DNA of 64,000 nucleotides from Thermodesulfobacteriota bacterium. GTDB taxonomy: Bacteria > Desulfobacterota_D > UBA1144 > Nemesobacterales > UBA2774. Below the pieces are notes generated by a model. The model did no database searches, was not told the origin of the DNA, and was given only the letters and a program-made list of their open reading frames with translations. Shown here piece after piece: positions 14,271-51,814 of this stretch. The position numbers and the translations under genes are program-made. Location: positions 1,856,001 to 1,920,000 of the forward strand of contig OZ244197.1 in assembly GCA_965216785.1 (NCBI GenBank). The letters run 5' to 3'. Each line of letters starts with the position of its first letter. Positions within the stretch are counted from its first letter, which is position 1.

Positions 14271-15015
14271 ATAACAAATCTTCTGAGCGGTTCCACAGCC
14301 ACAGTGTGGTTGCAACGGTTGGAATAAACATGAACCACGTTCCATATAGACCGATCGCGAACCCTGCAAACGGGGCGGGCAGCAGTGCTCCCACGGCCAT
14401 TGTCAGAACCAACACCCCGAGGGGCGACACAATGATGTACCAGCGCGGGTACAATGTCCGCCCGCTCAGGATTCCAACGCCATGCCAAACTGAGCCTATG
14501 TAAAAAGCCAATTCCGCCGTTAAATCTCCCATGAAAAAATGATTGACAATTAAACGGTTGGCCGTTTCATAAAATAAAGCGTCAGTAGAGCCTACCAGGG
14601 CTTTTGCCTGCGCCAGCACGCTCAGGAACGCAAACCCGGCGTGTTGTATGCCTCCGATCATAAGAAGTGCATAAGCAAGTATTACGCAAGGCACGGCGGC
14701 GAGCCAAAACCCGGCGCGTCTCATGCCGATCCACCAGTGGTAATACGACAAGGTGTAAATGGGGTAGAGCCAGCCTGCTGTTTGCGCCATCATTATCATC
14801 CAGTGAGGGCGGTTGCCAGCGGTGCTAATCAGGTCCCATGCCGCGGGAGAAAAGTAATCAAGACCGCTGAGCGTGGGAGAAAAGTAATCAAGACCGCTGA
14901 GCGTGGGAGAATAGGCATAAATAAAGTCACACACGCCGTTCCAGAGTATGAGTATGGAAATGATAACGCCTATGAGCCGGAGACGATCTCTGAGAGCATT
15001 ACTTTGTGCCGTCAT
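14269..15015 (-). CDS. Multi-pass membrane protein of unknown function with an internal 10-aa duplication
   Basis: About 6 hydrophobic segments; GGAG RBS; SPTLSGLDYF occurs twice. Confidence 0.7.
   Translation of the reverse strand: MTAQSNALRDRLRLIGVIISILILWNGVCDFIYAYSPTLSGLDYFSPTLSGLDYFSPAAWDLISTAGNRPHWMIMMAQTAGWLYPIYTLSYYHWWIGMRRAGFWLAAVPCVILAYALLMIGGIQHAGFAFLSVLAQAKALVGSTDALFYETANRLIVNHFFMGDLTAELAFYIGSVWHGVGILSGRTLYPRWYIIVSPLGVLVLTMAVGALLPAPFAGFAIGLYGTWFMFIPTVATTLWLWNRSEDLL
14845..14911. repeat. Perfect 30-bp tandem duplication (2.2 copies), in frame
   Basis: gggagaaaagtaatcaagaccgctgagcgt at 14845 and 14875, followed by gggagaa. Confidence 0.95.
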
Positions 15016-15200
15016 TTATTTACAGCTCCATGTTTTTTATATCTAGTTAGTACTTGAATTATAACACCCAAACTCTCAAGGAGGATCGAAGGTTTAAACA
15101 CACCTTGAAACATCCGCCGGCTATTGTATATTTACAGCCCAATAATCCAGGTCATAAATATTCAGATTTTCAGCATCTATAACACAGGTAAAACAGCCAC

Positions 15201-30392: not shown

Positions 30393-31451
30393 ATGGGCAA
30401 GCTCTTATCCAGAGTCTTAGCTGTATGTCTAATATTATTATTCCTCACCCCTTACACGCTATCTGATCAGGGGTTTGATCTCGGATCTCCCGATCCAGAA
30501 GGCACGGTTAAGGTTCAGGCGTATTTTGAGCTCCAGGATATAAATGAAATTAATGATGAAGTTGACACATTTGAATTCACTGGCGTGTTAACACTTAAGT
30601 GGCTTGATCCTCGAGAAGCTTTTGATCCTGCTCAAGTAGGAGTGAATGAGAAGGTCTTTCAGGGAGCCTATCAATTCAATGAGATTGCTACCGGCTGGTA
30701 TCCTCAATTCGTCCTTGTAAATGAATCAGGTCTGTTTGAGATAAGCGGAGTTACTCTGCGAATAGGGCCGGATGGGTCATCTACTCTAATGCAGACAATT
30801 AATGCTACCGCGGAGGTTAATCTGGACTTAAGAAAATTCCCATTTGATACACAGCGCCTGGAAGCAGTATTTCAAACTATTGGTTTTAATAAAGAGGAAG
30901 TATTACTGCAGGTTGAATCGGATATTAGCCCAAGAGATATGATATTACCTGTACCGCAATGGGATGTTTTGGAAGTAGATTCATTTGTAATAGAGCGCAC
31001 TACACCGTATTTAGGTAAAGGAGCAGTTTCTTCAGCTTTTGTGGTTGGAATAGATGTAGAGCGAAGGCCCTTTTATGTAATAAGGCTTGTTGTTATACCT
31101 CTTATTGTTATTGTGCTGCTATCGTTCTCAGTATTTTGGATGGATAGATCCTCTCTCGGCGACAGGCTCAATGTCTCATTTATTGGAATTCTAACAGGCG
31201 TTGCTTACCTACTTGTTACAAGTGATCATTTGCCTAACATTTCTTATTTCACACTGATTCACGGGTTCCTGAACCTTAGTTACCTGACAATGTGCGCAAC
31301 AGTGGTGATTAATCTCGTAGTGGGCGCACTGGATAAGAGAGGAAATACTGAACCCGGAGATCGCGTAGACCGTATTTGTCGCTGGGCGTTCCCGCTCGTT
31401 TATTTTGTACTGCTAATTGTAATGTTTGTTGCGGCAAATCTTTTCTATTAG
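30393..31451 (+). CDS. Prokaryotic pentameric ligand-gated ion channel (GLIC/ELIC-like)
   Basis: Signal peptide; LKWLDPR, WYP, Pro-loop DLRKFPFDTQ; four C-terminal TM helices with M1 VIPL...FSVFW, M2-M3 LP motif and RWAFP before M4. Confidence 0.85.
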   Translation: MGKLLSRVLAVCLILLFLTPYTLSDQGFDLGSPDPEGTVKVQAYFELQDINEINDEVDTFEFTGVLTLKWLDPREAFDPAQVGVNEKVFQGAYQFNEIATGWYPQFVLVNESGLFEISGVTLRIGPDGSSTLMQTINATAEVNLDLRKFPFDTQRLEAVFQTIGFNKEEVLLQVESDISPRDMILPVPQWDVLEVDSFVIERTTPYLGKGAVSSAFVVGIDVERRPFYVIRLVVIPLIVIVLLSFSVFWMDRSSLGDRLNVSFIGILTGVAYLLVTSDHLPNISYFTLIHGFLNLSYLTMCATVVINLVVGALDKRGNTEPGDRVDRICRWAFPLVYFVLLIVMFVAANLFY

Positions 31452-38225: not shown

Positions 38226-39374
38226 TTGAGCGGTCGTCTTAGAAAACTATTTCTCGGCATAATTACGGTGATATTTATACTGCTGGCTGCAGAGGGGGTA
38301 GCCAGGATATTCTTTAACCCGACGGATTATTTATGGCGGAGACTGGTTCCGGACGACATGTTAAGACACAGAGTGGAGCCCAATACCAGGGGCCACGATG
38401 CTTGGGGTTTTAGAAACAGATTGGTGCCTGCCCACGCTGACATTGTAGCGCTCGGCGATTCGCAGACATACGGTACAAGCTCACTGGCAAAGCACTCCTG
38501 GCCTTCTATCCTGGGTGAGTTAAAAGGTCAGGAAGTATATAATATGTCCCTGGGCGGCTACAGTCCTGCCGAATATCTATACTTGATGGAAGATAAGGCC
38601 CTTGGTTTAGGACCAAACCTCATAATTGCCGGATTCTACTTGGGAAACGATCTTACCGATACTTATACTGCAGTATACAGTGTTCCGTACTGGAAGGATT
38701 TAAGAAACCCGGACATTGCTTCCATGCACGCACAAGTATCGCCCAATCAGAATAAAGCGTCACTCAAAAAGAACCCTCGGGCATCATTTATGAAGCAAAT
38801 CTATTTAATTGCTGATTGGTTTGCAGGAAACAGCGTCCTATACAGGATAGTGAATACATCATCTCTCGGAGATTATATAAGACAGAAAAAAATGATAGGG
38901 GCAGGGTTAGAAGTAGTGATGTTCGAGGATAAAGAGAATGATATCTACACCGGATTCACGCCTGGAAGATGGTTAGATAATCTTGATTTAAAAAACCCTG
39001 AGGTACAGGAAGGACTCGGGCTTACGCTTAATTTCTTTAATCAGATGAATGAACTAGCAGAGAGAAACAATGTCCGGTTTTTGGTTGTCTTAATTCCTAC
39101 AAAGGAGAGCGTGTTCGCAGATTTTATAGAAGGGAATAGTCGTTTGGAAAGCTCAGAAAAAATTGACCGTTTAATTGAGGCCGAAAGACAGATAAACAAT
39201 ATTGCAAAATCGTATTTTAAAGAGCATGATATTTCTTATCTGGATGTATTGAATCCGCTTAAAGAGGCTGTACATAACGAACAGTTATACCCCAATAACT
39301 ATAGTAGCCATCCAAATAAAAACGGAAACAGGATAATGGCCGGGTCTATTGCGCAGTGGATGGATAGTAGATAG
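38226..39374 (+). CDS. Membrane-anchored SGNH/GDSL-fold protein (AlgX/AlgJ-like)
   Basis: N-terminal TM ending AEGVAR; ALGDSQTYG, NMSLGGYS, YLGND, C-terminal HPN. Confidence 0.8.
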   Translation: MSGRLRKLFLGIITVIFILLAAEGVARIFFNPTDYLWRRLVPDDMLRHRVEPNTRGHDAWGFRNRLVPAHADIVALGDSQTYGTSSLAKHSWPSILGELKGQEVYNMSLGGYSPAEYLYLMEDKALGLGPNLIIAGFYLGNDLTDTYTAVYSVPYWKDLRNPDIASMHAQVSPNQNKASLKKNPRASFMKQIYLIADWFAGNSVLYRIVNTSSLGDYIRQKKMIGAGLEVVMFEDKENDIYTGFTPGRWLDNLDLKNPEVQEGLGLTLNFFNQMNELAERNNVRFLVVLIPTKESVFADFIEGNSRLESSEKIDRLIEAERQINNIAKSYFKEHDISYLDVLNPLKEAVHNEQLYPNNYSSHPNKNGNRIMAGSIAQWMDSR

Positions 39375-39634
39375 TAAAACCTACATTTACCCGGCATTTC
39401 GAATATACATATTACTATTTACTCATAACCCCTCCTTGGCCCTAATTGTCAATAACACCCAAATGTTTTTTCCCCAATTAATAGTACTTTTGGAATCAAT
39501 ATCTGATCATAAAATCCATCTAAAGCACTGAATCCAAACGATTTTAACAATAAATATGGCAATTAATAGGGGGCAGTATGTAGTAGCATTACTTAGTAAT
39601 AATTAGTAAATATTTGCGATGATCAAAAAAGTAC

Positions 39635-39663
39635 TTGACTGAAATCGTAAACGTTTATATATT
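39635..39663 (+). promoter_or_regulatory. Sigma70-type promoter for the collagen-like gene and probably the downstream cluster
   Basis: TTGACT-N17-TATATT. Confidence 0.55.
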
Positions 39664-39689
39664 TGAGTGAATTTAAACGGAGGATGGAG

Positions 39690-40763
39690 ATGATTAGATC
39701 AATTACTCGTGGAACTCTAGTTCTACTGCTGGCTATATCTGTAAACACATTTGCAGCTCAACCGGAAGTAACTGTAACAGAAGTATTCGTTGATTTTGAT
39801 ACCGAGACAATCACAATCATGGGTGATAACTTTGATCTTGGCCCTAATCCGCTCAATGTTACATTAGGTGCCTATGGCAGCCTAAATATAGTTTCTGCCG
39901 AACCAAATTTAATAATTGTCGACTTTCCAGCAGGCGGCCTGCTGGCTGGTGATTTTCTTTTAACGGTATCCAGCGGGCCAGGCCAAAGAAAAAATGACGA
40001 ACATGTCGTAACTGTTGGAGCAACCGGGCCTGAAGGACCGGAAGGCACGCCCGGAGAGCAAGGCCCCCAGGGTGCGCAAGGCCCACAAGGAGAGCCGGGT
40101 CCTGAAGGTCCTCAGGGAGAGCCTGGGCCAGAGGGCCCGCAAGGAGAGCCCGGACCACCAGGGCCTCAGGGTGATGCCGGACCCCCGGGACCGCAAGGTG
40201 ATCCTGGTATGAATGGTGTAGAAGGGCATCCGGGACAGCCTGGTCCACAAGGCGAACAAGGACCTCAGGGTGATACTGGACCACCAGGACCGCAGGGTGA
40301 TGCCGGACCTCCGGGACCACAAGGTGATCCGGGTCCCCAGGGTATTCAAGGACCCCCGGGACCACAAGGTGACACAGGACCCCAGGGGATTCAAGGGCTT
40401 CCCGGACCGCCAGGGCTGCAGGGCAATCCCGGACCCCCGGGCCCAAAGGGAGATCCAGGACTACAAGGAGAGACCGGACCAGAGGGCCCGCAAGGAATCC
40501 CCGGACCGTCGGGAACATGGAGTTTCTTTACAGGCAACTGTCCAACCGGTGGTAATGCATGTCAATTTACGGCATCCTGTGGAGCTGGCGAAACAGCGGT
40601 ATCCGGAGCTTGCGGGCTTTTAACCGGGAGTCAAAATAGCAGGGATATTATGTATACCGGTCCTAATCCGTTAGACACAACTCAATGGATTTGCAGATTT
40701 GACAGGGGTGGAGGTGCAGCTTTTACAGTAGACTACGGGGTATTTTGTGTTCCAAATTCTTAA
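39690..40763 (+). CDS. Secreted collagen-like protein
   Basis: GGAGG RBS before ATG 39690; signal peptide; beta-rich N-domain; ~55 uninterrupted Gly-X-Y triplets (40017-40511); Cys-containing C-domain. Confidence 0.9.
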
Positions 40764-40867: not shown

Positions 40868-41125
40868 ATGAACGAAAAACCTACTATAGCTGAAGATATT
40901 GATATTAATGAGGTAGAGGACGGCTACGTTATTTACCAAAAGGAAAATGACAAGGTTCACTACCTGAACAAGACTGCCGTGCTTGTACTCGAATCCTGCA
41001 CCGGGAAAAACACTGCTGCTGATATAGAGGTGATTGTAAAGGAGGCGTATAAGCTTCCTGAAGCACCACAAAAGGAAGTCGCCGACTGCCTCGATACACT
41101 CTTTCAAGAAGGTCTGATTAAATAA
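40868..41125 (+). CDS. PqqD-family RiPP recognition element (RRE)
   Basis: EVEDGYVIY...VHYLNKTAVLVLESCTG...VADCLDTLFQEGLI; about 85 aa, typical three-strand, three-helix pattern; alternative GTG start at 40862. Confidence 0.88.
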   Translation: MNEKPTIAEDIDINEVEDGYVIYQKENDKVHYLNKTAVLVLESCTGKNTAADIEVIVKEAYKLPEAPQKEVADCLDTLFQEGLIK

Positions 41126-41958
41126 ATTACGAACGTAAGTACACGCTGCTCGACACGGTAATCACAATACGTACTGAAAGCGAGGTACTGGCGCGCCGTC
41201 TTGATTTTATAGTACAAGAGGCGGAGCACACGCTTCACCCCCTAAAAGACGCTACATACGAATTCATACTCAGGGACGGCGCTTACGAGATAAGGAAGGA
41301 TGGAAGTCTTTGTTTCTCCTCTTCCGACCTCTCAGACGCAGTCTTTAATCTGCAGTGGCTTATTCATAAGGAAGTATTGAAGAACGTTACAGAGTCTATA
41401 CGTATTCATGCGGGATGCGGGGAGCTCGACGGAAGGAGGTTTCTCGTCGCGGGCGACAAGGGGGCGGGCAAGACGACGCTCATGGTACGTCTATTGTTCG
41501 AGGGATTCCGCGTCATCGGTGATGAGCTGGTACTGGTCAGGGACAGGAGAGCAATCCCATTTCCCAGAAGGTTTCACATCAAACAAGAAAGTATGAACCT
41601 GCTGCCCGAGCTTAACAGCCTGTTTGCTTCCCTGCCATACAATATGACAAGCTACGGCCATAAGATGTTTTCATTCACTCCTCAGGATGCCGGATATGAG
41701 TGGAAGATCGACGAGGGTGACATTCATTCTATTTTTTATCTGGAACCCAACCACGGAGGGCAGACGCGCATAGAGGAATGCCCGAAATATATGATGGTCA
41801 ATAGGGTTATGCCTATGAGTTTTCTGTCTGAGACCGAGGATCATATGAAGATAAACCAGCTCTGTAATATGATTGATCGAGCAAACTGTTATATTTTGCA
41901 TGTTGGAGACCTTGAAGGGGCGGTTTCCACTATACAGGAAAAAATGTCTGTGCTATAA
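41122..41958 (+). CDS. HPr-kinase-related P-loop kinase
   Basis: IHAG, Walker A GDKGAGKTT, IGDELVLV, PFPRRF; the frame is open from ATA 41122 (overlapping the PqqD TAA), while the ORF track starts at TTG 41377. Confidence 0.8.
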   Translation: MNYERKYTLLDTVITIRTESEVLARRLDFIVQEAEHTLHPLKDATYEFILRDGAYEIRKDGSLCFSSSDLSDAVFNLQWLIHKEVLKNVTESIRIHAGCGELDGRRFLVAGDKGAGKTTLMVRLLFEGFRVIGDELVLVRDRRAIPFPRRFHIKQESMNLLPELNSLFASLPYNMTSYGHKMFSFTPQDAGYEWKIDEGDIHSIFYLEPNHGGQTRIEECPKYMMVNRVMPMSFLSETEDHMKINQLCNMIDRANCYILHVGDLEGAVSTIQEKMSVL

Positions 41959-42003
41959 TGCGTAATTAGTATTATTAGACCTGCTATAAAGGAGGAACGT
42001 TAC

Positions 42004-42591
42004 ATGAGCGAGAAAAAATTTATAGATGAAGTTAATCCCGAAAGGCGCGAGTTTTTAGAGAAAGTGACCAAGGGAGCTTTTATCATCCCTACTGTAATAT
42101 CGGTGATGATGCTGAATCAGAAGCTTAACCTAACGACGGCCAACGCACAGAGCAACCTACCACCGTGCCTGTCTTGTGAGACTTTAATCTCCACCCCGGA
42201 CGGGAACGTCACAATAGTTGATTTAAAACCTGGGATGAAGGTCTATACCCTCGATACTAAAGGAAACAAGGTTGTAGAAGAGCTTGAGCTCGTATCAAAA
42301 GTAACGGTCCCTGAGACTCATACGCTCTTCAGTCTATGTTTTGGCGGCGGTACAGAGCTATTAGTTTCCGGTGCTCATCCGACAGCGGACGGCAGATATA
42401 TATATGATCTCAAACCGGGCGATATGATCGACGGCGCTGAGCTCTTATCCATCGAAAAGGTTAGCTACACAGCCGGATATACATATGACCTGCTACCGGC
42501 GGGAGATACTGGATGTTACTGGGCTGACGGGGTTCTTTTAGGCAGCACGCTAGCCGCAGAGTCAGAGAGCAGAATACGGAAGGCCTCTTAA
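42004..42591 (+). CDS. Precursor-like peptide 1 fused to a C-terminal Hint domain
   Basis: GGAGG RBS; 48-aa leader with ERREFL; core QSNLPP; Hint starts at Cys55 (42166): CLSCETLISTPDG, LVSGAHP, TYDL, YWADGVLLGS. Confidence 0.85.
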   Translation: MSEKKFIDEVNPERREFLEKVTKGAFIIPTVISVMMLNQKLNLTTANAQSNLPPCLSCETLISTPDGNVTIVDLKPGMKVYTLDTKGNKVVEELELVSKVTVPETHTLFSLCFGGGTELLVSGAHPTADGRYIYDLKPGDMIDGAELLSIEKVSYTAGYTYDLLPAGDTGCYWADGVLLGSTLAAESESRIRKAS

Positions 42592-42642
42592 CAAGGCTCT
42601 AAGAGCTATAAAAACAGCACTTAAAAGAAGGAGGGTTCTTAC

Positions 42643-43227
42643 ATGAGCGAAAAAAAATTTATAGATGAAGTTAACCCCGAGAGACGCGAATTTCTGGAAA
42701 AAGTAACTAAAGGCGCATTTATTATCCCAACTGTCGTTTCTGTAATGATGTTGAATCAAAAACTTAACCTTACGACAGCCAACGCGGCGAGCAACATGAT
42801 TTGTCTTTCTTGCGAGACTTTAATATCTACGCCCGAAGGTGAAATTCGGGTAGTTGATTTGAAACCGGGAATGCTTGTCTTTACCCTGGACATGAACGGA
42901 AACAAGGTCATAGAGCGGTTAGAGCTAGTATCGAAAGTAACGGTCCCTGAAACTCATGTACTCTGCCATCTGGTTTTTAGTGATGGGAGAGAGCTCTTTG
43001 TGTCGGGTGGGCATCCGACAGCGGACGGTAGAGATGTTAACGAGCTTGCGCCGGGTGACATGCTCGACGGAGCGGAGGTGGTCTCTGTAGTGAATATTCG
43101 CTACATAGCCGGTCATACCTATGACTTGCTCCCTGCCGGAGAGACGGGAAATTACTGGGCAAACGGTGTTCTGTTGGGCAGCACGCTCGCACCTGAGTCC
43201 GTGAGCAGAATACGGAAGGCCTCTTAA
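42643..43227 (+). CDS. Precursor-like peptide 2 fused to a C-terminal Hint domain
   Basis: Same leader with one substitution; core ASNMI; Hint starts at Cys54 (42802): CLSCETLISTPEG, FVSGGHP, TYDL, YWANGVLLGS. Confidence 0.85.
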   Translation: MSEKKFIDEVNPERREFLEKVTKGAFIIPTVVSVMMLNQKLNLTTANAASNMICLSCETLISTPEGEIRVVDLKPGMLVFTLDMNGNKVIERLELVSKVTVPETHVLCHLVFSDGRELFVSGGHPTADGRDVNELAPGDMLDGAEVVSVVNIRYIAGHTYDLLPAGETGNYWANGVLLGSTLAPESVSRIRKAS

Positions 43228-43337
43228 CTGTAAGGCAAGTTAAGCTAAGGTTTCAGCCTGTTACATTAAGTGCATAATTCATCTTTATGCTATGTAGAGC
43301 TTTCATCCTGTATTAAAATTTTTCCAATGGGTAAAAA

Positions 43338-44444
43338 TTGAGCGATATCCTGTTTTCCGCCTCTATGATCGTCCGAAACGAGGAAAAATTCCTTGAGGGA
43401 TGCCTTGAGTCCATTAGAAACGTCGTGGACGAAATAGTAATAGTCGATACAGGCTCAGTAGACGGCACAAAGGAGATTGCCTTAGAGTACGGTGCGAGGG
43501 TATTTGATTTCCCGTGGAACGGAGATTTCGCGGCAGCGCGTAACGAAGCCCTTCGTCACTGCAGGGGCGAATGGATACTGTATATAGACGCTGACGAACG
43601 GGTGAGGCCCGCCGAAAAGTCCTACGTCACTGAAATTCTCTCGGACGTATCTAAAGTCGCATATACACTTTTGTTTTACCCGATAGTGGGCTATACGGGA
43701 TACCGTGAGCACCGCATCTTCCGAAGCGATCCCCGCATACGTTTTCAGGGGGTTATACACGAAGGTATGCTTTCCGCGATCCAGGACGTTGCGCGCGAGG
43801 ACGGGCTCGAAATCGGTTATTGCGATCTTGTAATAGACCACCTGGGATACGAGGGTGACCTTACGCATAAGCACGAAAGGAACCTGCCCCTACTGAGAGA
43901 TCAGATTGAAAACGACCCAGAAAGAATTTACCTCAGATGGCAGCTCGGCGCGGCGCTTAAGGGACTTGGGGACTTGGATGGTGCGGAGAGGGCGTGGATG
44001 GACGCGATCGACATTATACGCGGAAAGGAAACGGTAGGCCCGGAAGACAGCCATCCGTACTACGACATGATCCGCCTCCTGAATGAGAGTGAGCGTGACT
44101 ACACAGAGCTTCTGGCCGAGTCTTCAAAGCTGTTTCCGGACAACTATTTAATAACCTGGACCAAGGCCATGACGCTGATGCACGATCAAAGATTTGAGGA
44201 TGCTGCGCGGGTGTTTGAATCTCTCGCCGCGATAGATCCGGCAAGCCTTGACGGGGAGATACTTGCCTATAACGCGCGCATATTCGATGAGCTTTCCTAT
44301 GAACCCCTCGCCACGTGTTATTTTAAGCTCGGCAAGCTAGAAGAGAGCGAGAAATATTACGCGCTCGCGCTCAGGTGTGATCCTGAAAATCAGCAATACC
44401 GTACGAAGCTCAAGTTCGTTTCAGCGTTGGTAAATAAATCGTGA
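43338..44444 (+). CDS. GT2 glycosyltransferase with C-terminal TPR repeats
   Basis: SMIVRNEE...CLESI...DEIVIVDTGS.DGT, FAAARN, IDADE, F.GVIHE, HLGY; TPR-like tail. Confidence 0.9.
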   Translation: MSDILFSASMIVRNEEKFLEGCLESIRNVVDEIVIVDTGSVDGTKEIALEYGARVFDFPWNGDFAAARNEALRHCRGEWILYIDADERVRPAEKSYVTEILSDVSKVAYTLLFYPIVGYTGYREHRIFRSDPRIRFQGVIHEGMLSAIQDVAREDGLEIGYCDLVIDHLGYEGDLTHKHERNLPLLRDQIENDPERIYLRWQLGAALKGLGDLDGAERAWMDAIDIIRGKETVGPEDSHPYYDMIRLLNESERDYTELLAESSKLFPDNYLITWTKAMTLMHDQRFEDAARVFESLAAIDPASLDGEILAYNARIFDELSYEPLATCYFKLGKLEESEKYYALALRCDPENQQYRTKLKFVSALVNKS

Positions 44445-44450
44445 TTGATT

Positions 44451-45182
44451 ATGAAAGATGAACCGCTTGTATCATGCCTTTGCGTTACAAGAGACAGAGT
44501 GCCTATGCTCAAAAGAGCGATAAGGTCGTTCAGGGACCAGGATTACGGGCACAAGGAGCTGGTGATCGTGTATGAGAGCGACGACGGTGAAACAGAGGAA
44601 TTTTTAAGAGAAGTTTCAGACGGTAACATTCTCAAAATAAAAGTTCCGGCAGAGCCCAGACTCACGCTCGGAGAGCTCAGGAACCTGGCTCTTAAAGAGA
44701 GTACGGGAGAGTATTTTTGCCAGTGGGACGACGACGATTTCTATCATAATCAGAGGGTTTCATTCCAGATGGAAGTACTGCGCGAGTCTGCTATGCCCGC
44801 CTGCGTAATGGTCCACTGGCTCATATACGATTTGGCGCATGCTCAGGCCTACGTGTCTAATATGAGGCCTTGGGAAGGCAGTCTGCTCTGTAAAAAATCA
44901 CTCATAGATGAAGAGCTTAAGTACGAGGATAAAGGCAGGGGGGAGGACACGGCTTTAATAAGTGAGCTGTTTACGAGAAACCTCGCATTTCCCGTAATTA
45001 TGCCAAAGCTATATATATACGTATACCATGGGGGTAATGTGTGGACAGATGAGCATTGGGGCAGAATATTCAGCGCGAGCACGAAGCTCTCTGAGGAGTC
45101 GAGCAGGGTGATAAGGGACATATTGGACGGGAAATACACAGGTGATGAAGCCTCCGGGCTGCTGGATGATATAACTGAATGA
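44451..45182 (+). CDS. GT2 glycosyltransferase
   Basis: PLVSCLCVT, LGELRN, QWDDDD, GED. Confidence 0.85.
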   Translation: MKDEPLVSCLCVTRDRVPMLKRAIRSFRDQDYGHKELVIVYESDDGETEEFLREVSDGNILKIKVPAEPRLTLGELRNLALKESTGEYFCQWDDDDFYHNQRVSFQMEVLRESAMPACVMVHWLIYDLAHAQAYVSNMRPWEGSLLCKKSLIDEELKYEDKGRGEDTALISELFTRNLAFPVIMPKLYIYVYHGGNVWTDEHWGRIFSASTKLSEESSRVIRDILDGKYTGDEASGLLDDITE

Positions 45183-45209
45183 AATCACCCGCATAACGAA
45201 CTAAGAATT

Positions 45210-46958
45210 ATGGCGATACCCAAAATATTGTATCAGACCTATAAGACCAAAGAGATCCCGGAGCGGCTCGAAGAGTATCGCCGTAAGCTGCTAGAGCTTC
45301 ACCCCGGCTGGGAATACCGGTTTTACGGAGACGACGAGTGCAGGGATTTAGTGAAGAGGTTTTTACCCTCGTTTCTCCCGGTATATGATAGCTGCTCGAT
45401 ACCGGCTCAGAAAGCCGATATATTCCGCATCATAGCGGTCTGGGCGCTAGGCGGGTTTTACCTGGATATCGACGTCGAATGTATACGGAGCGTCGATCAG
45501 CTCTGTGAATTCCACTTAGTATTTGCCGAGGAGCTCACACTTACTCAAGAGCAGGCGAAGGAACTGGGTCACAGGGACCGCCTAAGGGTGGGGAACTTTA
45601 TGTTCGGCAGTGAGCAGGGCCATCCTTTTCTTCTGCGTATTCTAAGGAAAATGGCGGAGGAAAGCAGGCGTGAGATTCGCTCTGAGAACGATGTGCTGGA
45701 ATCCACAGGGCCGGGCCTTGTCACTACCGTATACCATGATGCGTGTGAGGAGCTAAGGGACATCGTACTGCTGCGGAACATCGACCGTGAATGCCCTGTC
45801 ACTGGCGGTGTAGCCTGCCACTTCGGAAATTATGCCATACACCACCATGAAGGCTCCTGGAGGTGGGGGCATGTTAAATCTCCCAAGCTGAAAAACTTTG
45901 CCCGAAGTCAAAAGATCACACCGACTGAGATAAACAAAATCTGCAGCGAGATCGATTCTGAATTAGAAAGGACAAGTAGACCCGAGGATATTTATATATT
46001 AAGAGCATACAAGGAGAAACCATACGATGGCTTAACCTACGTGTTTGACCGAACTTCGGGGCTCGGCATCATTTCTGACAATACGAGCAGTCTTGAAGAT
46101 AAAAAAGTCCTCGTGAGCGGGATGCCCATTATGTTTACCGACAAAGTGTCTAAGCAAAATACCAATGTTATATACACGACATTTGAAAGTACGTCGCTTC
46201 CCCCAGATTGGGTGAGTGCGATAAACGGCTTATTTAACTACTGTATAGTTCCGCACCAGCACGTAAAGAAAGTGTTTGAGGATTCGGGGGTGAGCATACC
46301 AGTCAGCGTCATACACCAGGGATTTACTAGGTATAGGAGGAAAGATAGGAAAGCTCTTGACGATAAGACATACAAGATCGGATTTCTCGGGGTCCCTGTA
46401 GAGAGGAAGAATCTATTCAAGCTATATCAGGCTTGCGCACATCTTCTGGCGGATATACCTGAACTGAGGCTTAGTGTTCATATCCCGGATTATTACGGTG
46501 GGATGAATGTGGAATATCTGGGGATGGTCAAAATGTCACCCTTCGTAGATTGGACCGAAGGTCATCTGGGCGAGAATGAGATCGCAGAGTGGTACAGCGG
46601 GCTTTCGTGTTATGTATTTCCGTCGAGCGGGGAAGGGTGGTCCTTTACTCCGCGGGAAAGTCTTTATCTCGGAGTACCGACTATTTTGTCGGATATCCCT
46701 GTTCACAGGGAGCTTATTGAATCCGGTTACTGCAAAGCGATACCCGTAAGTGGTAGGGAAGAGGCGGTATTTAACTCAAAGGTGTCCGGACAATGGGACA
46801 GGGTTGCGGTTGAGGACATAGAAAACACGATACGAGACCTGTATCTGAATTACGGGAGTTATTATATTAAGGCTATTCAGGGAAGCCGCTGGATAGAGAA
46901 TAAATGGACCAATGAAAGCACTCAGCAGTTACTGCTCGATTATTTGACAAAGGTGTAA
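45210..46958 (+). CDS. Two-domain glycosyltransferase: GT32/OCH1-like DXD domain plus GT4 (GT-B) domain
   Basis: IPKILYQT, KADIFR...GGFYLDID, TGPG; then YTTFES, RKN, FPSSGEGWSFTPRE. Confidence 0.85.
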   Translation: MAIPKILYQTYKTKEIPERLEEYRRKLLELHPGWEYRFYGDDECRDLVKRFLPSFLPVYDSCSIPAQKADIFRIIAVWALGGFYLDIDVECIRSVDQLCEFHLVFAEELTLTQEQAKELGHRDRLRVGNFMFGSEQGHPFLLRILRKMAEESRREIRSENDVLESTGPGLVTTVYHDACEELRDIVLLRNIDRECPVTGGVACHFGNYAIHHHEGSWRWGHVKSPKLKNFARSQKITPTEINKICSEIDSELERTSRPEDIYILRAYKEKPYDGLTYVFDRTSGLGIISDNTSSLEDKKVLVSGMPIMFTDKVSKQNTNVIYTTFESTSLPPDWVSAINGLFNYCIVPHQHVKKVFEDSGVSIPVSVIHQGFTRYRRKDRKALDDKTYKIGFLGVPVERKNLFKLYQACAHLLADIPELRLSVHIPDYYGGMNVEYLGMVKMSPFVDWTEGHLGENEIAEWYSGLSCYVFPSSGEGWSFTPRESLYLGVPTILSDIPVHRELIESGYCKAIPVSGREEAVFNSKVSGQWDRVAVEDIENTIRDLYLNYGSYYIKAIQGSRWIENKWTNESTQQLLLDYLTKV

Positions 46959-47077
46959 GAATTTTAGATTATTGACTAATATTGATAACCGTCTTGTTTT
47001 ATCTGAAGCAATGTGTTAACTTAGAATCACTCTTTAAATGTTTACGCATTTGAAAATTGATAAAGGAGACTGGGAAT

Positions 47078-47248
47078 ATGAGCGACAAGAAATTTCCGGA
47101 GGACGTGAACTCCGAAAGACGCGAGTTTATAGAGAAAGTGACCAAGGGCGCTTTTATTATCCCCACTGTAATATCGGTGATGATGTTGAATCAGAAGCTG
47201 CACCTTACGACAGCAAACGCGAATAGTAACATCCCACCGCCACCTTAA
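47078..47248 (+). CDS. Stand-alone precursor-like peptide 3 (56 aa)
   Basis: AAAGGAG RBS; MSDKKFPEDVNSERREFIEKVTKGAFIIPTVISVMMLNQKLHLTTANANSNIPPPP. Confidence 0.85.
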   Translation: MSDKKFPEDVNSERREFIEKVTKGAFIIPTVISVMMLNQKLHLTTANANSNIPPPP

Positions 47249-47322
47249 ATTGTGGTTTCGGTGATCTGAGCAGCTGGGTTCTGATATAACTTTTGAATAG
47301 TTTTAAAGGAGAACGGATATAA

Positions 47323-47502
47323 ATGAGTGACAAGAAATTTCCGGAGGACGTGAACTCCGAAAGGCGCGAGTTTTTAGAGAAAGTGACCAAGGGCGCTTTT
47401 ATCATCCCCACGGTAATATCAGTAATGATGCTGAATCAGAAGCTAAATCTGACGACAGCCAACGCACAGAGTAATATGACTATCATTAATGAACAGCCGT
47501 AA
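47323..47502 (+). CDS. Stand-alone precursor-like peptide 4 (59 aa, not in the ORF track)
   Basis: AAAGGAG RBS; hand translation MSDKKFPEDVNSERREFLEKVTKGAFIIPTVISVMMLNQKLNLTTANAQSNMTIINEQP. Confidence 0.85.
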   Translation: MSDKKFPEDVNSERREFLEKVTKGAFIIPTVISVMMLNQKLNLTTANAQSNMTIINEQP

Positions 47503-47821
47503 GCTTTAGCATGGAGCAGTATAAATTTATGGCTGTCGTTGATATCTATTAAAAAGTAAGTCCGGCTAGAACGGGGTTGGCGAATGGAGCTCGCCCTTCG
47601 TTTCCGGTAAATGTTTTATATCATTTCAATTTTAAGCTTATTTTGCTGAATTTTGCCAGAATAAGCTTATTCCATCCAAGCTCAAATTAATCTCAACTTA
47701 TCAGATACAATAGAGGTTTTAATAATAAGCCGTAATGAGAATTCTTCGGTCCCTTATATAAATCCTCATTATGTTTATAGTATTATGCTGAGGGTTGGCG
47801 CTCAGAGCGGGATAAAGGAAA

Positions 47822-49099
47822 ATGGTTCAGTACAAAAATCCGGAATGTAAACGCGGCGGTTATAACGGAGGATATCTACCCGACCGCACGCAGGAGCTTT
47901 TGCTCAGGGCATGTCTTCTTAAGGGAGACGAGGCCATTGATGCGTATCGTGAATGGAAGAGCTTAGTCGATCTTGATAACGTCGATCCCGGCTCATACCG
48001 TCTTTTCCCTCTCCTTTACATAAACTTGAAATCACAGGGCTTGGAAGAGCCGATGATGAATATCTTTAAGTGGGTCTACACAAAAACCCGTGAGAATAAC
48101 GAAATACTGCTGCGTAATCTCGGCCCCCTGCTGAAAGAATTCAACAACTGCGGGATCGAGGTCATATTGCTTAAAGGCGCCGGGCTGATTCTCACTTGCT
48201 TCCGGGATTATGGACTTCGCCCCATGGTGGATGCGGACCTTCTCGTTCCTACCGCGAAAACCGGGGACGCGATCGAGCTCATAACAGGACTTGGATGGGA
48301 TTCGTCCATAACACCGCTTAAGGGTTTTAAGGACATGAAGCTGCTGTCCCGGCTCGGATGGACCCCGGGGGACAGAAAGCTCGAGGACTTCACTGAAGAG
48401 TATTTTTGCGTGAGGCACGGGCAGGACTTTACAAACCCTGAGAAGTTCACGATAGACCTTCACTGGCACATGCTCCACGGGTATAACGAGCCTGACGCCG
48501 ACGCGGATTTCTGGCAAGGTGCTGGTACTGTAAACGTGGAAGGCGCGCAAGCGAGGGTACTCGATCCGGCTGATCTGCTTCTTCACGTCTGTTCACACGG
48601 AGTAAGATGGGACCCTCTTCCCGCTATTCGCTGGGTGGCGGATGCGGCATGGATAGTCGACGGCTCAGAAGGTGGTATTGATTGGGAGAGGTTTGTAGAT
48701 GTAACCGCTCGCCACGGTAAGGTGCTTTATGCAAGGGAAGCTATACGCTATTTGAACCGTTATTTGGTACACAAAGTTCCGCAGTCCGTACTAGATCGGC
48801 TAAACACCCTGCCGGTCACGAAAGCTCAATATTTGGAGTATCATATTAGGACGCGTCCGCCTGGAATACTCGACGGTTTTTATGAGCTGGGGTTTCTTTA
48901 CGATAATTATTCGAAGGTCAGTCAGGGTCAAAACCTTTATCGCAGACTCACCGGATACCCCCGGTTCCTTCAGCATGTGTTCGGTATGGAAAAGCTGCGG
49001 CATTTGGTATTGTACGCCGCGTTCGAGTTCGTACGCCGGGGCGCGCATCTGCCGGGCTTGGTGGTCAGGGGACTAAAGAACAAGCTCGTAAAGGGGTGA
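47822..49099 (+). CDS. Nucleotidyltransferase family protein (NTP_transf_5-like)
   Basis: ILLKGAGL, LRPMVDADLLV, IDLHW, LLHVCSHG, RWVAD, IDW motifs. Confidence 0.85.
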   Translation: MVQYKNPECKRGGYNGGYLPDRTQELLLRACLLKGDEAIDAYREWKSLVDLDNVDPGSYRLFPLLYINLKSQGLEEPMMNIFKWVYTKTRENNEILLRNLGPLLKEFNNCGIEVILLKGAGLILTCFRDYGLRPMVDADLLVPTAKTGDAIELITGLGWDSSITPLKGFKDMKLLSRLGWTPGDRKLEDFTEEYFCVRHGQDFTNPEKFTIDLHWHMLHGYNEPDADADFWQGAGTVNVEGAQARVLDPADLLLHVCSHGVRWDPLPAIRWVADAAWIVDGSEGGIDWERFVDVTARHGKVLYAREAIRYLNRYLVHKVPQSVLDRLNTLPVTKAQYLEYHIRTRPPGILDGFYELGFLYDNYSKVSQGQNLYRRLTGYPRFLQHVFGMEKLRHLVLYAAFEFVRRGAHLPGLVVRGLKNKLVKG

Positions 49100-49151
49100 G
49101 GTGGGAGGGGCGGATTGTTTTATTCCGCAAACGTGTGTAGTTCCGATGCAA

Positions 49152-50159
49152 TTATCTTGTCAGGCGCCAGTAAAGCCTTCTAAACTTTCTTAGTATCTTA
49201 CTTTCGATTACCGTCAATGTTACACCTTTTAAAGTTCTAAGCGGGGATCCCTTAATAACGTCTTTCTCTAGATCACTGATTTTATAACGCTTCTGCTCAC
49301 CTGCAGCAGGGCTTGTATTTTCGAGTATGGTTTTCATTCTTTCTTGGAAGAGTTTGTCATCTGCATCCGTACCGCTCGTGTCCGATACCAATATGTGACC
49401 CCTGGGGGTTCTTAGGTACTTTCTCGCGCCCCCTCCGGGGGCGCAAAGGTGCCAGGCATTGGCCTCTGTAGTGACCATGAGTGTGTAATTTTTTTCAACG
49501 AGCCTCGCGCATAAATCGCTCTCTTCCCGGTGCGCCTGGTCCGAGTACCCGTCAACGGCCCATCCCCCTGCTTCCTCTACCGCTTTGCGGCGGTAGCATA
49601 TCGCCCCACCGAGGAGACTATCGACTTCTATGACTTCCGGATCATTATAATAGTGGTGGCCCTGCAGTTTCCAGGTCAGCTCATCAAGAGTAGATGTGAA
49701 TGACCTTTCCGCCAGATTCAAATCCAAGCTCGCCTTTTTCGCTTGAGGTACTGGAAAGCACCCGCCCACTGCAGCAAGCGGCCTGTCGGCGAAAAAATGA
49801 AACGGCTTTAGTATGTTTTCAATGAAACTTGCGTCCGGAAGCATATCGTCATCTATCCTCAGTATGAACTCGATCGATTGCGGCACGGCCTCCATTGCCT
49901 GCTGGTGTCTCTTCCAGCCATCTTTAGTACGAATGATTATGATCTCGTGACCTATGTTTCTGGCAACCGTAAGAAGGTCGGTAATCGCATCGTCTCTCTC
50001 GACAGGTGAATCGCTCTGGTCGTTGATTACAATCATAAAATTCGTAAAAGTTTGATTGAGCAGAGAGTTCAGCAGCACTGCAAGGTAGGAAGGACGGTTC
50101 TTCGTTGGTATGGCTACAGCTATTTTTTCGTCCTTTTTGATTTGCCTTAGTCTATCCAT
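49152..50159 (-). CDS. GT2 glycosyltransferase
   Basis: VAIPTKNR, ILRIDDD, REESDL. Confidence 0.85.
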   Translation of the reverse strand: MDRLRQIKKDEKIAVAIPTKNRPSYLAVLLNSLLNQTFTNFMIVINDQSDSPVERDDAITDLLTVARNIGHEIIIIRTKDGWKRHQQAMEAVPQSIEFILRIDDDMLPDASFIENILKPFHFFADRPLAAVGGCFPVPQAKKASLDLNLAERSFTSTLDELTWKLQGHHYYNDPEVIEVDSLLGGAICYRRKAVEEAGGWAVDGYSDQAHREESDLCARLVEKNYTLMVTTEANAWHLCAPGGGARKYLRTPRGHILVSDTSGTDADDKLFQERMKTILENTSPAAGEQKRYKISDLEKDVIKGSPLRTLKGVTLTVIESKILRKFRRLYWRLTR

Positions 50160-50288
50160 CTTCGTTCGTTTTAAAGCTTAGTGTTTAAATCACAATCGCT
50201 AAGCCAGGAGCTTCCTCTTTCAAAATTTCAGCTACCACCTTAGCTTAATCTTAACTATTAATAAACCAAGAGGCCTAACGTAATGATT

Positions 50289-51662
50289 TTACTTATTCAA
50301 AGCCACAAACCTCTTTACTTTCCCTGTTTCAGGATTGCGGGGCAGGGAGTCTATGATTTCCACTATAACTTCCGGGTCTTTGAGGCCGTCTTTTTCAAGC
50401 TGCTGTTTGATAGATGAAATAATTTCTTCCATATTCGGCTCGCCATTGCAAACGAGCTTTACAATACCGCCGCGCTCGGTCTGAACGACTTGATATTCCT
50501 CTACTTCTTTTACTAGGTCTAGGATATCGCTGAAAGCCATCGGATGTACCCTGACGTTACCGTACTGAAACCAGTTGGTGGCTCTGCCGAGGATATTTGT
50601 AACTCTACTATATGCCGGGTATTCACCAAAGTCCCGGCCGATCTCGACAACATCGTCTACTTCATACCGTATCATGGGGCATGATTTATTAACTAAACTG
50701 GTTGCCAGAACCCTGGCCGCGTCTCTTGCATCCTCGACCGGGTTGTCTTTCTCATCCACCAGCTCGAGTATTACAGCGTCCTCGCATATCACCATGCCGG
50801 GGCTATCGGCCAGCTCGACCGCGATTTGACCGATCTCTACGCATCCCCAGCTGTTGCATGTTTTCACCCCCCACGCTTTTTTAATGCGGGCGCGCATAAT
50901 GTCGTCAAGGGGGCCGGAATTGGTGCTTACCCAGCGGGGTGATATATCCAGCTCTCCCTTCAATTGGGCTGAAGCAAGCTCAGCGGTTGAGGATGCGAAC
51001 GCCATAATGTAAGTGGGCTGGAAACTGTTTAACTTTTCGCATTGCTCCGTCATGGGGTCAGTGGAACCCAGGCTTAAGAGCTCGAATTCCGCAAGCGGCT
51101 TGCTTGGGAAAAGAATTCTGCTTCCGTGAAGTAAGGTGGGGGCCTCTACGGTGGCAAGTTTCATAGGCCCCTTGTAACCTGCTTTTTGCTCCAGATCTAT
51201 AAAGTTACGGTACGTAAGACAGATTGATTCACTAACAAAATCCGTGTCCCAAAGAAAGAGACCTCTCTTGCCCGTTGAGCCTCCGGTTGCTATAAAGAGG
51301 TACTTGTCATTGTAGAAGGGGTTTTCAATCTCCCCTTTTCTTAACTTGTCCAGGTGATTCTCGGCAATGTCGTAAGATAATTCCGGGACTGCGAGAAAAT
51401 CTTCCCAACGGTCCATGTGCTCTGTTTTGCTGGTCGGCGGGATGCTATGAAGGTCCTCAAGGTTAAACACAGTAGTGTCTACAGATTTAAGGACATCACC
51501 GTAAAACACAGTACGCTCCTTGGCTAAAGTCAATATGTCCCTTAACGCCATTGTCTGATGATTAACGAGCTCGTCTTTACTCCAGGATAGATGCTTTAGG
51601 TGCTCCGGCATTCTACTCTGGGCGTCTGTCCAAACAGACTGAATTATTTCCTCGTATGTGAT
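50289..51662 (-). CDS. PaaK/CapK-like adenylate-forming (acyl-CoA ligase family) enzyme
   Basis: ATGGSTGKRG, WGCVE, PMIRYEVDD, ILGR, TGKVK; start uncertain (ATC 51662 sits 7 nt after GGAGG). Confidence 0.8.
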   Translation of the reverse strand: MTYEEIIQSVWTDAQSRMPEHLKHLSWSKDELVNHQTMALRDILTLAKERTVFYGDVLKSVDTTVFNLEDLHSIPPTSKTEHMDRWEDFLAVPELSYDIAENHLDKLRKGEIENPFYNDKYLFIATGGSTGKRGLFLWDTDFVSESICLTYRNFIDLEQKAGYKGPMKLATVEAPTLLHGSRILFPSKPLAEFELLSLGSTDPMTEQCEKLNSFQPTYIMAFASSTAELASAQLKGELDISPRWVSTNSGPLDDIMRARIKKAWGVKTCNSWGCVEIGQIAVELADSPGMVICEDAVILELVDEKDNPVEDARDAARVLATSLVNKSCPMIRYEVDDVVEIGRDFGEYPAYSRVTNILGRATNWFQYGNVRVHPMAFSDILDLVKEVEEYQVVQTERGGIVKLVCNGEPNMEEIISSIKQQLEKDGLKDPEVIVEIIDSLPRNPETGKVKRFVALNK

Positions 51663-51814
51663 ATAGACACCTCCGCCAATAAGTCTAATTCTCACATTAC
51701 CGTGTATGCGCAGTAATAGCAATAAATTATAGAATAACGCATCTGTTTATATGAAGCGCTCTTCGGCCAATAAAATTATAACTATATTATTAATATCGGC
51801 ATTATAATTACTGC

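What the first reader, a model, noticed from the sequence alone, without database searches (positions are those of the whole stretch)
40868..51662. Candidate new RiPP-like system: RRE, HPr-like kinase, nucleotidyltransferase and glycosyltransferases with Hint-fused precursor peptides
Seen: a co-oriented run of PqqD/RRE, HPr-kinase-like kinase, two leader-core-Hint genes, three glycosyltransferase genes, two stand-alone leader-core peptides and an NTP_transf_5-like nucleotidyltransferase. A GT2 and a PaaK-like adenylating enzyme face them on the other strand. All four peptides share a 48-aa leader ending TTANA, followed by x-Ser-Asn and a short variable tail (QSNLPP, ASNMI, NSNIPPPP, QSNMTIINEQP). 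Established: a conserved leader with variable core beside an RRE is the hallmark of RiPP clusters, and HPr-like kinases and this nucleotidyltransferase type occur in phosphorylated lasso-peptide clusters such as paeninodin. Seen: no asparagine-synthetase-like cyclase, transglutaminase-like B2 protease, radical SAM, YcaO or lanthionine enzyme in the window. Inference: the invariant Ser is phosphorylated and then nucleotidylated or glycosylated, while the Hint self-cleaves or ligates the core C-terminus. I do not recall a described RiPP class whose precursors carry their own autoprocessing domain of this type.
Basis: partly seen in the sequence, partly recalled or inferred. Interest (0 to 1): 0.92.

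Follow-up and report, generated by a model that had tools for sequence, protein, structure and literature searches.

The report
Sugar-phosphate peptide precursors with self-cleaving tails
This gene cassette, found in several bacterial phyla, encodes short peptides that are likely phosphorylated, sugar-coated and exported, and in two lineages the peptides have separately acquired two unrelated tail domains predicted to cut themselves off, a feature I found in no paper on ribosomally made peptide products.

Summary
The core cassette is RRE, HprK-like kinase, precursors, GT2-TPR, further glycosyltransferases and a PF14907 nucleotidyltransferase. All 38 clade kinases fetched without using the peptide lie near a leader homologue; 0 of 86 other kinases do. 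The cassette spans Dadabacteria, Alpha-/Gammaproteobacteria, Actinobacteria, Acidobacteria and Deltaproteobacteria. The opposite-strand GT2 and PaaK-like genes are not core.

The leader is Tat-like (RRxF, hydrophobic run, AxA) and embeds a lasso-type FxxPxV motif. Its A-Q-S-N matches the site phosphorylated in LPP peptides (PMC13381572), the closest known family. LPP's peptidase and ABC exporter were not found, so this is not an LPP.

The Hint is optional, under purifying selection, and keeps the N-terminal cleavage residues but not His-Asn. In Alphaproteobacteria an unrelated self-cleaving domain (Peptidase S74) sits at the same place; one locus has the window's layout of two fused plus free precursors. 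Best reading: an exported linear phospho-glycopeptide whose C-terminus is released by autoproteolysis. All chemistry is inferred.

The scan earlier noted similar Tat-leader cassettes and a Hint-tailed precursor on other DNA; its notes returned no S74 fusion. New variant of a known kind.

The parts
40868..41125 (+). Discrete RRE (PqqD family), 85 aa; the only PqqD match in the genome
   Evidence: PF05402 over cut-off; profile hits lasso B1 TfuB1 (E 6e-4) and 9x8z, the LppB entry (E 0.016); present in 32 of 32 full loci
41122..41958 (+). HprK-like kinase, 278 aa from an ATA start that overlaps the RRE stop (ATAA); GDKGAGKT and GDE motifs
   Evidence: TIGR04352 E 3e-19, below cut-off; motifs invariant in the cross-phylum alignment; ATAA junction in 16 of 16 intact loci
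42004..42591 (+). Precursor 1: leader 42004-42147, core QSNLPP 42148-42165, Hint 42166-42588
   Evidence: Hint model pLDDT 92, Z 17.9-18.3 to inteins, BIL and Hedgehog
42643..43227 (+). Precursor 2: leader 42643-42786, core ASNMI 42787-42801, Hint 42802-43224
43338..44444 (+). GT2-TPR protein/peptide glycosyltransferase (core gene, usually right behind the precursor)
   Evidence: PF00535 + TPR; closest solved structures GmaR (E 6e-30) and SunS (E 2e-16); 31 of 32 full loci
44445..45182 (+). Second GT2 (conserved in Dadabacteria cassettes)
   Evidence: PF00535
45210..46958 (+). GT32(DxD)+GT4 fusion glycosyltransferase
   Evidence: PF04488 + PF00534; the two halves occur as separate genes in distant cassettes
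47078..47248 (+). Free precursor 3, core NSNIPPPP
47323..47502 (+). Free precursor 4, core QSNMTIINEQP
47822..49099 (+). NTP_transf_5 (PF14907) nucleotidyltransferase-fold enzyme, PsmN/LppN-like; the only one in the genome
   Evidence: 32 of 32 full loci
49152..50159 (-). Accessory GT2, not core
   Evidence: PF00535; 2 of 32 full loci
50289..51722 (-). PaaK/F390-like adenylating enzyme, most likely an unrelated neighbour
   Evidence: NCBIfam hits below cut-off; 1 of 32 full loci, the window only

Best explanation
This is a conserved multi-phylum gene cassette that likely makes short, linear, phosphorylated and glycosylated peptides, likely exported by Tat, and whose Hint-fused precursors are predicted to cut off their own C-terminal tail. 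Inferred steps: (1) the RRE binds the FxxPxV motif (F26-P29-V31) inside the leader; (2) the HprK-like kinase phosphorylates Ser50 of A-x-S-N, as LppK does in LPPs; (3) the PF14907 enzyme caps the phosphate with a hexose, as PsmN is needed for in pseudomycoidin, and/or GT2-TPR glycosylates a Ser/Thr directly, after which the GT2/GT32/GT4 enzymes extend a glycan; (4) in fused precursors the Hint makes a Cys thioester right behind the 4-13-residue core and is released, giving the same kind of product as the free genes; Peptidase S74 does the same job in Alphaproteobacteria; (5) no peptidase or exporter was found in the cassette, so the leader doubles as a Tat signal and housekeeping signal peptidase I cuts after A-N-A. 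Shown: anatomy, co-occurrence, selection, Hint fold and catalytic residues, parallel S74 fusion. Not shown: any binding, modification, cleavage, export or biological role.
For: Co-occurrence: of loci fetched through the kinase alone, 38 of 38 clade kinases with at least 400 bp downstream have a leader (34 within 300 nt), against 0 of 86 other HprK-like kinases. Of 32 full-length loci: RRE 32, NTase 32, GT2-TPR 31, another GT 32 (some of these were fetched through the leader). In the family, leader and kinase agree in 31 of 33 genomes, and both exceptions lie at contig ends. RRE motif: aromatic-x-x-P-x-[VILM] anchors 389 unique leaders (F 374, Y 9, W 5, L 1; 6 of 470 hits had no anchor and were dropped); lasso/LPP RREs bind [Y/W]xxPx[V/L] (PMC13381572). 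Phospho-site precedent: S3 of AQSNWK; Ser two residues after A-x-A in 277 of 290 Dadabacteria-type precursors. Hexose capping precedent: PMC6993621. Tat build: RR or KR in 388 of 389; uncharged run of 13 or more in 362 of 362 long enough to score; A-x-A/G in 380 of 389; TatC and one S26 signal peptidase in the genome; a PEP-CTERM tail over cut-off, a DUF11 domain and Thr/Pro-rich tails on distant leaders. No ABC exporter or S26 peptidase among 81 flanking ORFs at E<=1e-15. Hint: Cys1, block-B His, block-F Asp, Ser181 and Thr182 in 100 of 100, no His-Asn, dN/dS 0.19. Three cores are identical in fused and free form. S74: 7 fusions over Pfam cut-off plus one truncated, with S-D-x-x-x-K right behind a short core; L228 has two fused plus one free precursor.
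Against: No experiment. In the 99 distant leaders the Ser is not invariant: Asn found in 79, Ser directly before it in 35, Ser at -1 or -2 in 53, so the acceptor may differ or vary. F instead of Y/W in the RRE motif, and F-to-Ser spacing of 24 against 18 in LPP. 26 of 99 distant leaders have KR rather than RR. The window peptide has no hit to the TIGR01409 Tat model at E<=0.1, and only 1 of the 22 distant precursors scanned passes its cut-off. Leader conservation far exceeds what a plain signal peptide needs, so RRxF could be an enzyme-docking motif. lppN deletion had no effect in the LPP heterologous system, so the NTase step is uncertain. Only 73 of 123 candidate flanking ORFs were scanned for exporters and peptidases; an M64 and a C93 peptidase flank single lineages.
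Confidence: 0.6

Rival explanations
1. The tails are ligases or anchors, not just scissors: the Hint thioester (possibly passed to Ser181/Thr182) and the S74 ester transfer the glycopeptide's C-terminus to a lipid, sugar or amine, as Hedgehog does to cholesterol and as PEP-CTERM sorting is thought to do.
For: Three different C-terminal devices sit at the same position behind the core: Hint, S74 and PEP-CTERM. Ser181/Thr182 are invariant; structural alignment ends put them at the intein terminal-Asn and +1 positions, with Hedgehog C143 falling on Ser181 (inferred from range ends). C143 forms a branched intermediate (PMC12054796). The nearest non-precursor Hints end signal-peptide or membrane-anchored proteins.
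Against: Free precursors with the same cores outnumber fused ones (113 of 290 fused), and many cassettes have no fusion. Only 12-30 variable residues follow the Hint, with no sterol-recognition-type domain. S74 domains are known for hydrolytic release (recalled).
Confidence: 0.2
2. The primary target is the Asn or the Ser/Thr two residues after it: the system is a cytoplasmic N- or O-glycosylation pathway led by GT2-TPR, with kinase and NTase making an activated sugar or a phospho-sugar cap rather than modifying the peptide Ser.
For: N-x-S/T in 51 of 79 distant and 99 of 276 Dadabacteria-type cores, against 19% and 12% Ser/Thr at neighbouring positions (sequences are related, so not independent). 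GT2-TPR is nearly universal and closest to protein glycosyltransferases GmaR and SunS. Mannosyltransferase-type families (PF11051, PF03452, PF04488) accompany distant cassettes.
Against: Only 1 of the window's 4 cores has the sequon. HprK-type kinases in lasso and LPP systems act on peptide Ser. The kinase is translationally coupled to the RRE.
Confidence: 0.15
3. The product stays in the cytoplasm or leaves by another route; RRxF plus the hydrophobic run is only a docking helix for the enzymes, and an unlinked protease removes the leader.
For: Extreme leader conservation (dN/dS 0.05); weak scores to curated Tat models; KR variants.
Against: The tripartite signal build is kept across phyla; the leader is fused to extracellular-type tails; no exporter or peptidase was found in the cassettes.
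Confidence: 0.15
4. The Hint and S74 tails are tolerated passengers that remove themselves and add nothing to the pathway.
For: Optional (Hint 9 and S74 4 of 32 full loci); three free genes end in CL/CM and look like truncated fusions.
Against: Purifying selection on the Hint (dN/dS median 0.19, max 0.32), retention across three genera, duplication within cassettes, and independent recruitment of an unrelated autoprotease at the same junction.
Confidence: 0.1

Closest known systems
Linear polyphosphorylated peptides (LPP) of Bacillota, LppA/K/B/S/D/N (Nat Commun 2026, PMC13381572)
   Same: Cyclase-free cassette with discrete RRE, HprK-like kinase and uncharacterised NTP transferase; aromatic-x-x-P-x-V leader motif; conserved Ser in A-Q-S-N; variable C-termini; glycosyltransferase-rich context.
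   Different: No SipW-type peptidase LppS or MsbA-type exporter found; Tat-like 48-aa leader with FxxP instead of a 27-aa YxxP leader; GT2-TPR and other GTs are core; Gram-negative and actinobacterial hosts; precursors fused to Hint, S74 or PEP-CTERM. The paper's main text has no occurrence of twin, Tat, Hint or intein.
Phosphorylated and phospho-hexosylated lasso peptides: paeninodin (PadeK), pseudomycoidin PsmK/PsmN (Chem Sci 2019, PMC6993621)
   Same: HprK-type kinase on a peptide Ser, a nucleotidyltransferase-fold enzyme needed for hexose on the phosphate, discrete RRE.
   Different: No macrolactam cyclase or B2 protease; cores are short and linear; the Ser is near the core's N-terminus, not at the C-terminus.
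Glycocin S/O-glycosyltransferase SunS and the protein glycosyltransferase GmaR
   Same: GT2+TPR architecture; closest solved relatives of the core GT.
   Different: Far below the SunS family cut-off (69 of 350 bits); no double-glycine leader, C39 transporter or disulfide core; an RRE and a kinase are present.
Hedgehog Hint and type B bacterial intein-like domains (PMC4031507, PMC12054796)
   Same: HINT fold (Z about 18, rmsd 1.4-1.8 A, 121-124 residues), Cys1, block-B His, block-F Asp, no terminal Asn.
   Different: Fused behind a 4-13-residue peptide core in a tailoring cassette; ends G-S-T; no sterol-recognition region; acceptor unknown.
HPr-rel-A system (TIGR04352/TIGR04353, NCBIfam)
   Same: Best family hit for the kinase and a hit for the RRE.
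   Different: Both are below cut-off (69 of 200; 24.5 of 35 bits); no paper in the library names it.

Membership tests
LPP | Discrete RRE | tested here: met
   PF05402 over cut-off; 32 of 32 full loci
LPP | HprK-like kinase | tested here: met
LPP | Uncharacterised NTP transferase | tested here: met
   PF14907; 32 of 32 full loci
LPP | Archaeal-type SpI (SipW-like) leader peptidase LppS in the cluster | tested here: not met
   No TIGR02228 match in G000, 92% complete; the only S26 peptidase lies about 1 Mb away; none among 81 flanking ORFs
LPP | MsbA-like ABC exporter | tested here: not met
   None in the window's cassette or among 73 of 123 candidate flanking ORFs from 17 loci plus 8 window ORFs, at E<=1e-15
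LPP | Leader consensus YxxPxVLxHQxIxFETxxS | tested here: not met
   Only the aromatic-x-x-P-x-V part and the downstream Ser correspond; F in 374 of 389, longer spacing, Tat-like N-region
LPP | Kinase-dependent (poly)phosphorylation of the Ser in A-Q-S-N | not testable with these tools
   Sequence context matches; needs mass spectrometry
Lasso peptides | Macrolactam synthetase in the cluster | tested here: not met
   None in window ORFs; genome Asn_synthase hits are remote
Lasso peptides | B2 transglutaminase-like protease | tested here: not met
   No PF13471 match over cut-off in G000
Glycocins | SunS-family glycosyltransferase, double-glycine leader, disulfide core | tested here: not met
   TIGR04195 69 of 350 bits; leaders end A-x-A and the free window cores have no Cys
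HPr-rel-A system | TIGR04352 and TIGR04353 above cut-off | tested here: not met
Class 1 intein / type A BIL | C-terminal His-Asn | tested here: not met
   G/A-S-T in 100 of 100
Hedgehog-like / type B BIL Hint | HINT fold with Cys1, block-B His, block-F Asp and no block-G Asn | tested here: met
   Pfam Hint_2 scores 26.1 and 28.3, just under the 28.4 cut-off
Hedgehog-like / type B BIL Hint | N-terminal autocleavage, with or without transfer to an acceptor | not testable with these tools
   needs in vitro assay
Tat substrate | RRxF motif, uncharged hydrophobic run, A-x-A site, TatC in the genome | tested here: met
   (the rule of 13 uncharged residues is recalled)
Tat substrate | Score over the curated TIGR01409 cut-off | tested here: inconclusive
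   Window peptide has no hit; 1 distant member over cut-off, 4 below
Tat substrate | Tat-dependent export | not testable with these tools
   needs reporter assay

The most novel reading that the evidence does not exclude
A RiPP-like class in which one leader is both RRE handle and Tat signal, a few residues are phospho-glycosylated in the cytoplasm, and the precursor's own autoprocessing tail (Hint, or independently S74 or PEP-CTERM) activates the C-terminus as a (thio)ester and ligates the glycopeptide to a lipid, glycan or amine: a bacterial, Hedgehog-style way of making anchored or capped glycopeptides.
Probability: 0.2. Interest if true: 0.92.

Novelty: new variant of a known kind. Interest (0 to 1): 0.72.

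Why it matters
It extends the 2026 LPP chemistry far beyond Bacillota, in a form that appears to use a Tat signal and housekeeping processing in place of a dedicated peptidase and exporter. It supplies natural substrates and partner glycosyltransferases for the PF14907 enzymes, whose reaction stayed unresolved for both PsmN and LppN. Precursors that carry their own autoprocessing domain, recruited twice from unrelated folds at the same junction, are not mentioned in the RiPP protease review I searched. If the tails ligate, this would be a new C-terminal modification route and a compact tool for making site-specifically glycosylated, C-terminally activated peptides. Cassettes exist in Alphaproteobacteria (Bradyrhizobium, Devosia records), so heterologous tests are feasible.

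Tried and rejected
RRE-leader complex prediction: no verdict (scores 0.31, 0.18, 0.02; mark 0.32; controls not folded), so no evidence either way. Expression: no RNA holder listed. Promoter and terminator scan: 20 against 16.1 +/- 3.9 and 15 against 9.8 +/- 3.1 in shuffles; not used. The first Hint model (12 sequences, pLDDT 66) was replaced by a 78-sequence model. Plasmid search with a distant kinase: no match. Lasso, glycocin and HPr-rel-A membership rejected (see tests). PaaK-like and opposite-strand GT2 genes rejected as core. RRE-kinase frameshift fusion rejected as less likely than an ATA start: a stop precedes the ATA in the kinase frame in 14 of 16 junctions. The 'prefix' count of 84 shared cores is an artefact of an empty string and is not used; only the 3 identical cores are. 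Literature searches with no relevant paper in the listing: 0 papers; 0; two lasso papers; 0; only the LPP paper. Earlier-findings look-ups by sequence and for S74 fusions returned nothing.

Full report
Observation. The region holds, co-oriented: a PqqD-family RRE (40868-41125), an HprK-like kinase, two leader-core-Hint genes, a GT2-TPR, a GT2, a GT32+GT4 fusion, two free precursors and a PF14907 enzyme. A GT2 and a PaaK-like gene face them. The four leaders share 40-47 of 48 residues while their DNA differs at 17-38 of 153 bases; median dN/dS over 79 usable of 136 leader pairs is 0.05. The kinase has no standard start for its first 85 residues. Its frame opens at ATA overlapping the RRE stop, and this ATAA junction is in 16 of 16 intact loci (one frameshifted fragment row dropped). 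Sources name close homologues as Dadabacteria/Thermodesulfobacteriota. The genome has one PqqD and one PF14907 gene, both here, no B2 protease over cut-off, no YcaO and no SipW-type peptidase (92% complete).

Distribution and core. The leader occurs in 19 of 33 genomes of the family and 20 of 120 of the phylum; the kinase in 19 of 33, agreeing in 31. A profile search and a second homologue search extended the leader to a broad family, RRxF...FxxPxVxS..M...AxA..N. Searching genomes and metagenomes with the kinase alone gave 49 non-redundant clade kinases. All 38 with at least 400 bp downstream have a leader, 34 of them within 300 nt; 0 of 86 other HprK-like kinases do, including one short clade-like fragment, L059 (the leader profile was partly built from these loci's peptides after a first, independent profile had found them). 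Record titles include Bradyrhizobium, Devosia, Congregibacter, Microthrixaceae, Acidobacteria and Deltaproteobacteria. Among 32 loci with long flanks: leader 32, RRE 32, NTase 32, GT2-TPR 31, another GT 32, Hint 9, S74 4, the opposite-strand GT2 2, PaaK-like 1. Distant cassettes carry PF04488, PF11051, PF03452, GT4, GT10 or GT90 enzymes. No ABC exporter or S26 peptidase appeared among 81 flanking ORFs (73 of 123 candidates plus 8 from the window). In the family of the Bradyrhizobium genome the leader is in 8 of 401 genomes, so the cassette is patchy outside Dadabacteria.

The leader. 389 unique leaders (470 hits, 6 without anchor dropped) have RR or KR (388), then aromatic-x-x-P-x-[VILM]. All 362 long enough to score have an uncharged run of 13 or more, and 380 of 389 an A-x-A/G site. 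TatC and a housekeeping S26 peptidase are in the genome. Curated Tat models score these leaders weakly. The aromatic-x-x-P-x-V element corresponds to the [Y/W]xxPx[V/L] motif that lasso and LPP RREs bind (PMC13381572), and the RRE profile hits TfuB1 and the LppB entry 9x8z. The Ser two residues after A-x-A is present in 277 of 290 Dadabacteria-type precursors. In 99 distant leaders the Asn (79) is better kept than the Ser before it (35), and N-x-S/T is frequent (51 of 79; 99 of 276 in the near group; background 19% and 12%). This is the main result against 'invariant Ser' and the basis of a rival reading.

The tails. In 100 leader-Hint proteins Cys1, the block-B His, the block-F Asp, Ser181 and Thr182 are invariant and His-Asn is absent; dN/dS is 0.19 over 107 usable of 136 pairs; cores are 4-13 residues with a variable last residue. 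The model (pLDDT 92) matches inteins, BILs and Hedgehog equally (Z 17.9-18.3, rmsd 1.4-1.8 A, 121-124 residues). By the roles given in PMC4031507 and PMC12054796, this set supports N-terminal thioester formation but not splicing. 113 of 290 near-group precursors are fused; three cores occur identically in fused and free form, and three free genes end in CL/CM like truncated fusions. The nearest other Hints end secreted or membrane proteins. Distant leaders are fused instead to Peptidase S74: seven over the Pfam cut-off (L054, L224, L226, two in L228, P0325, P0351) and one truncated (L225), with S-D-x-x-x-K directly behind a short core. That S74 cuts in front of this Ser by a Ser-Lys dyad is recalled, not from a call. 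L228 reads RRE, kinase, two leader-core-S74 genes, one free precursor, GT2-TPR, NTase: the window's parts with a different autoprotease. Other leaders carry PEP-CTERM (over cut-off), an IPTL-like tail (below cut-off), DUF11 or Thr/Pro-rich tails.

Mechanism. The best reading is RRE-guided phosphorylation of Ser50, then hexose capping by the PF14907 enzyme and/or direct glycosylation by GT2-TPR (closest solved relatives GmaR and SunS), glycan extension, tail self-release, Tat export and a cut after A-N-A. Every step is inferred. Rivals are ligation by the tail (0.2), Asn- or Thr-directed glycosylation (0.15), no Tat export (0.15) and passenger tails (0.1); they overlap in part with the best reading.

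Comparison. Earlier scan notes pointed me to the LPP paper, which I then read (PMC13381572: outline and abstract, sections 6, 7, 8, 11, 12 and a term search; supplements not read, and they may list further precursors). LPP clusters have SpI, RRE, HprK, NTase and an MsbA-like pump; LppK phosphorylates S3 of AQSNWK; LPPs are described as restricted to Bacillota. The present system works like an LPP, but two defining genes were not found and the leader consensus is not met, so I do not file it as one. PMC6993621 (passages) shows that PsmN is needed for hexose on phosphorylated pseudomycoidin. PMC10885120, a review of RiPP leader proteases (term search and passages), has no occurrence of intein, Hint, signal peptidase or twin-arginine. 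PMC4031507 and PMC12054796 were read as passages. Searches for Hint with RiPP, for RRE with twin-arginine, kinase, GT and NTase, for HPr-rel-A and for S74 with RiPP gave no relevant paper; the library lacks most subscription papers. The scan itself has noted Tat-leader RRE/HprK/NTase cassettes and one Hint-tailed precursor on other DNA; these are unchecked notes, not support.

Verdict. A real, widespread, uncharacterised system: a new variant of the LPP/phospho-lasso tailoring kind. Its distinctive features are a leader that looks like both RRE handle and Tat signal, core glycosyltransferases, and the independent recruitment of two unrelated self-cleaving domains behind the core. Interest 0.72; the ligation/anchoring reading has about 0.2 probability and would merit 0.92.

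Noticed in passing
window 41119-41127; L021-L040: The kinase gene starts at a non-canonical ATA overlapping the RRE stop (ATAA) in 16 of 16 intact Dadabacteria-type loci, so it is often mis-annotated as shorter; possibly a conserved way to keep kinase levels low.
   Followed up: partly
L037:7767-8840, L038:7108-7839, L039:7120-7794, L237:6715-7329: Stand-alone leader-core-Hint genes lie far from the cassette in related genomes, suggesting substrates modified in trans.
   Followed up: partly
window 38226-40763: An SGNH-hydrolase-like gene and a collagen-repeat protein with a TIG-like domain lie just upstream of the RRE; neither was seen beside related cassettes.
   Followed up: partly
window 30393-31448: Neurotransmitter-gated ion-channel ligand-binding domain (PF02931, E 3e-15): a bacterial pentameric ligand-gated channel homologue.
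   Followed up: no
L030 (G026): The cassette is broken by several frameshifts in the RRE, GT32-GT4, NTase and precursor genes: decay or assembly error.
   Followed up: no
L050:10895-13699; L135:4733-8992: Deltaproteobacteria-type cassettes: a 935-aa secreted-looking BNR-repeat protein sits between kinase and precursor in L050; L135 has two kinase-precursor pairs; their cores lack Ser-Asn and are Gly/Pro-rich.
   Followed up: partly
L057:10858-13153, 14146-16157: GT2-TPR is interrupted by a 368-aa ORF that looks like a transposase (by eye), and GT10 fucosyltransferase and GT90 genes lie beside the cassette.
   Followed up: no
L022:360-1238: An MbnB/TglH/ChrH-family (PF05114) gene lies about 3.4 kb from the NTase in one relative; probably a separate system.
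   Followed up: no
P0332, P0337-P0349: Leaders fused to 130-150-residue domains with no Pfam match in the two scanned (P0337, P0340), several with repeated S/T-N-x-P cores and paired Cys: possible protein substrates of the same pathway.
   Followed up: no
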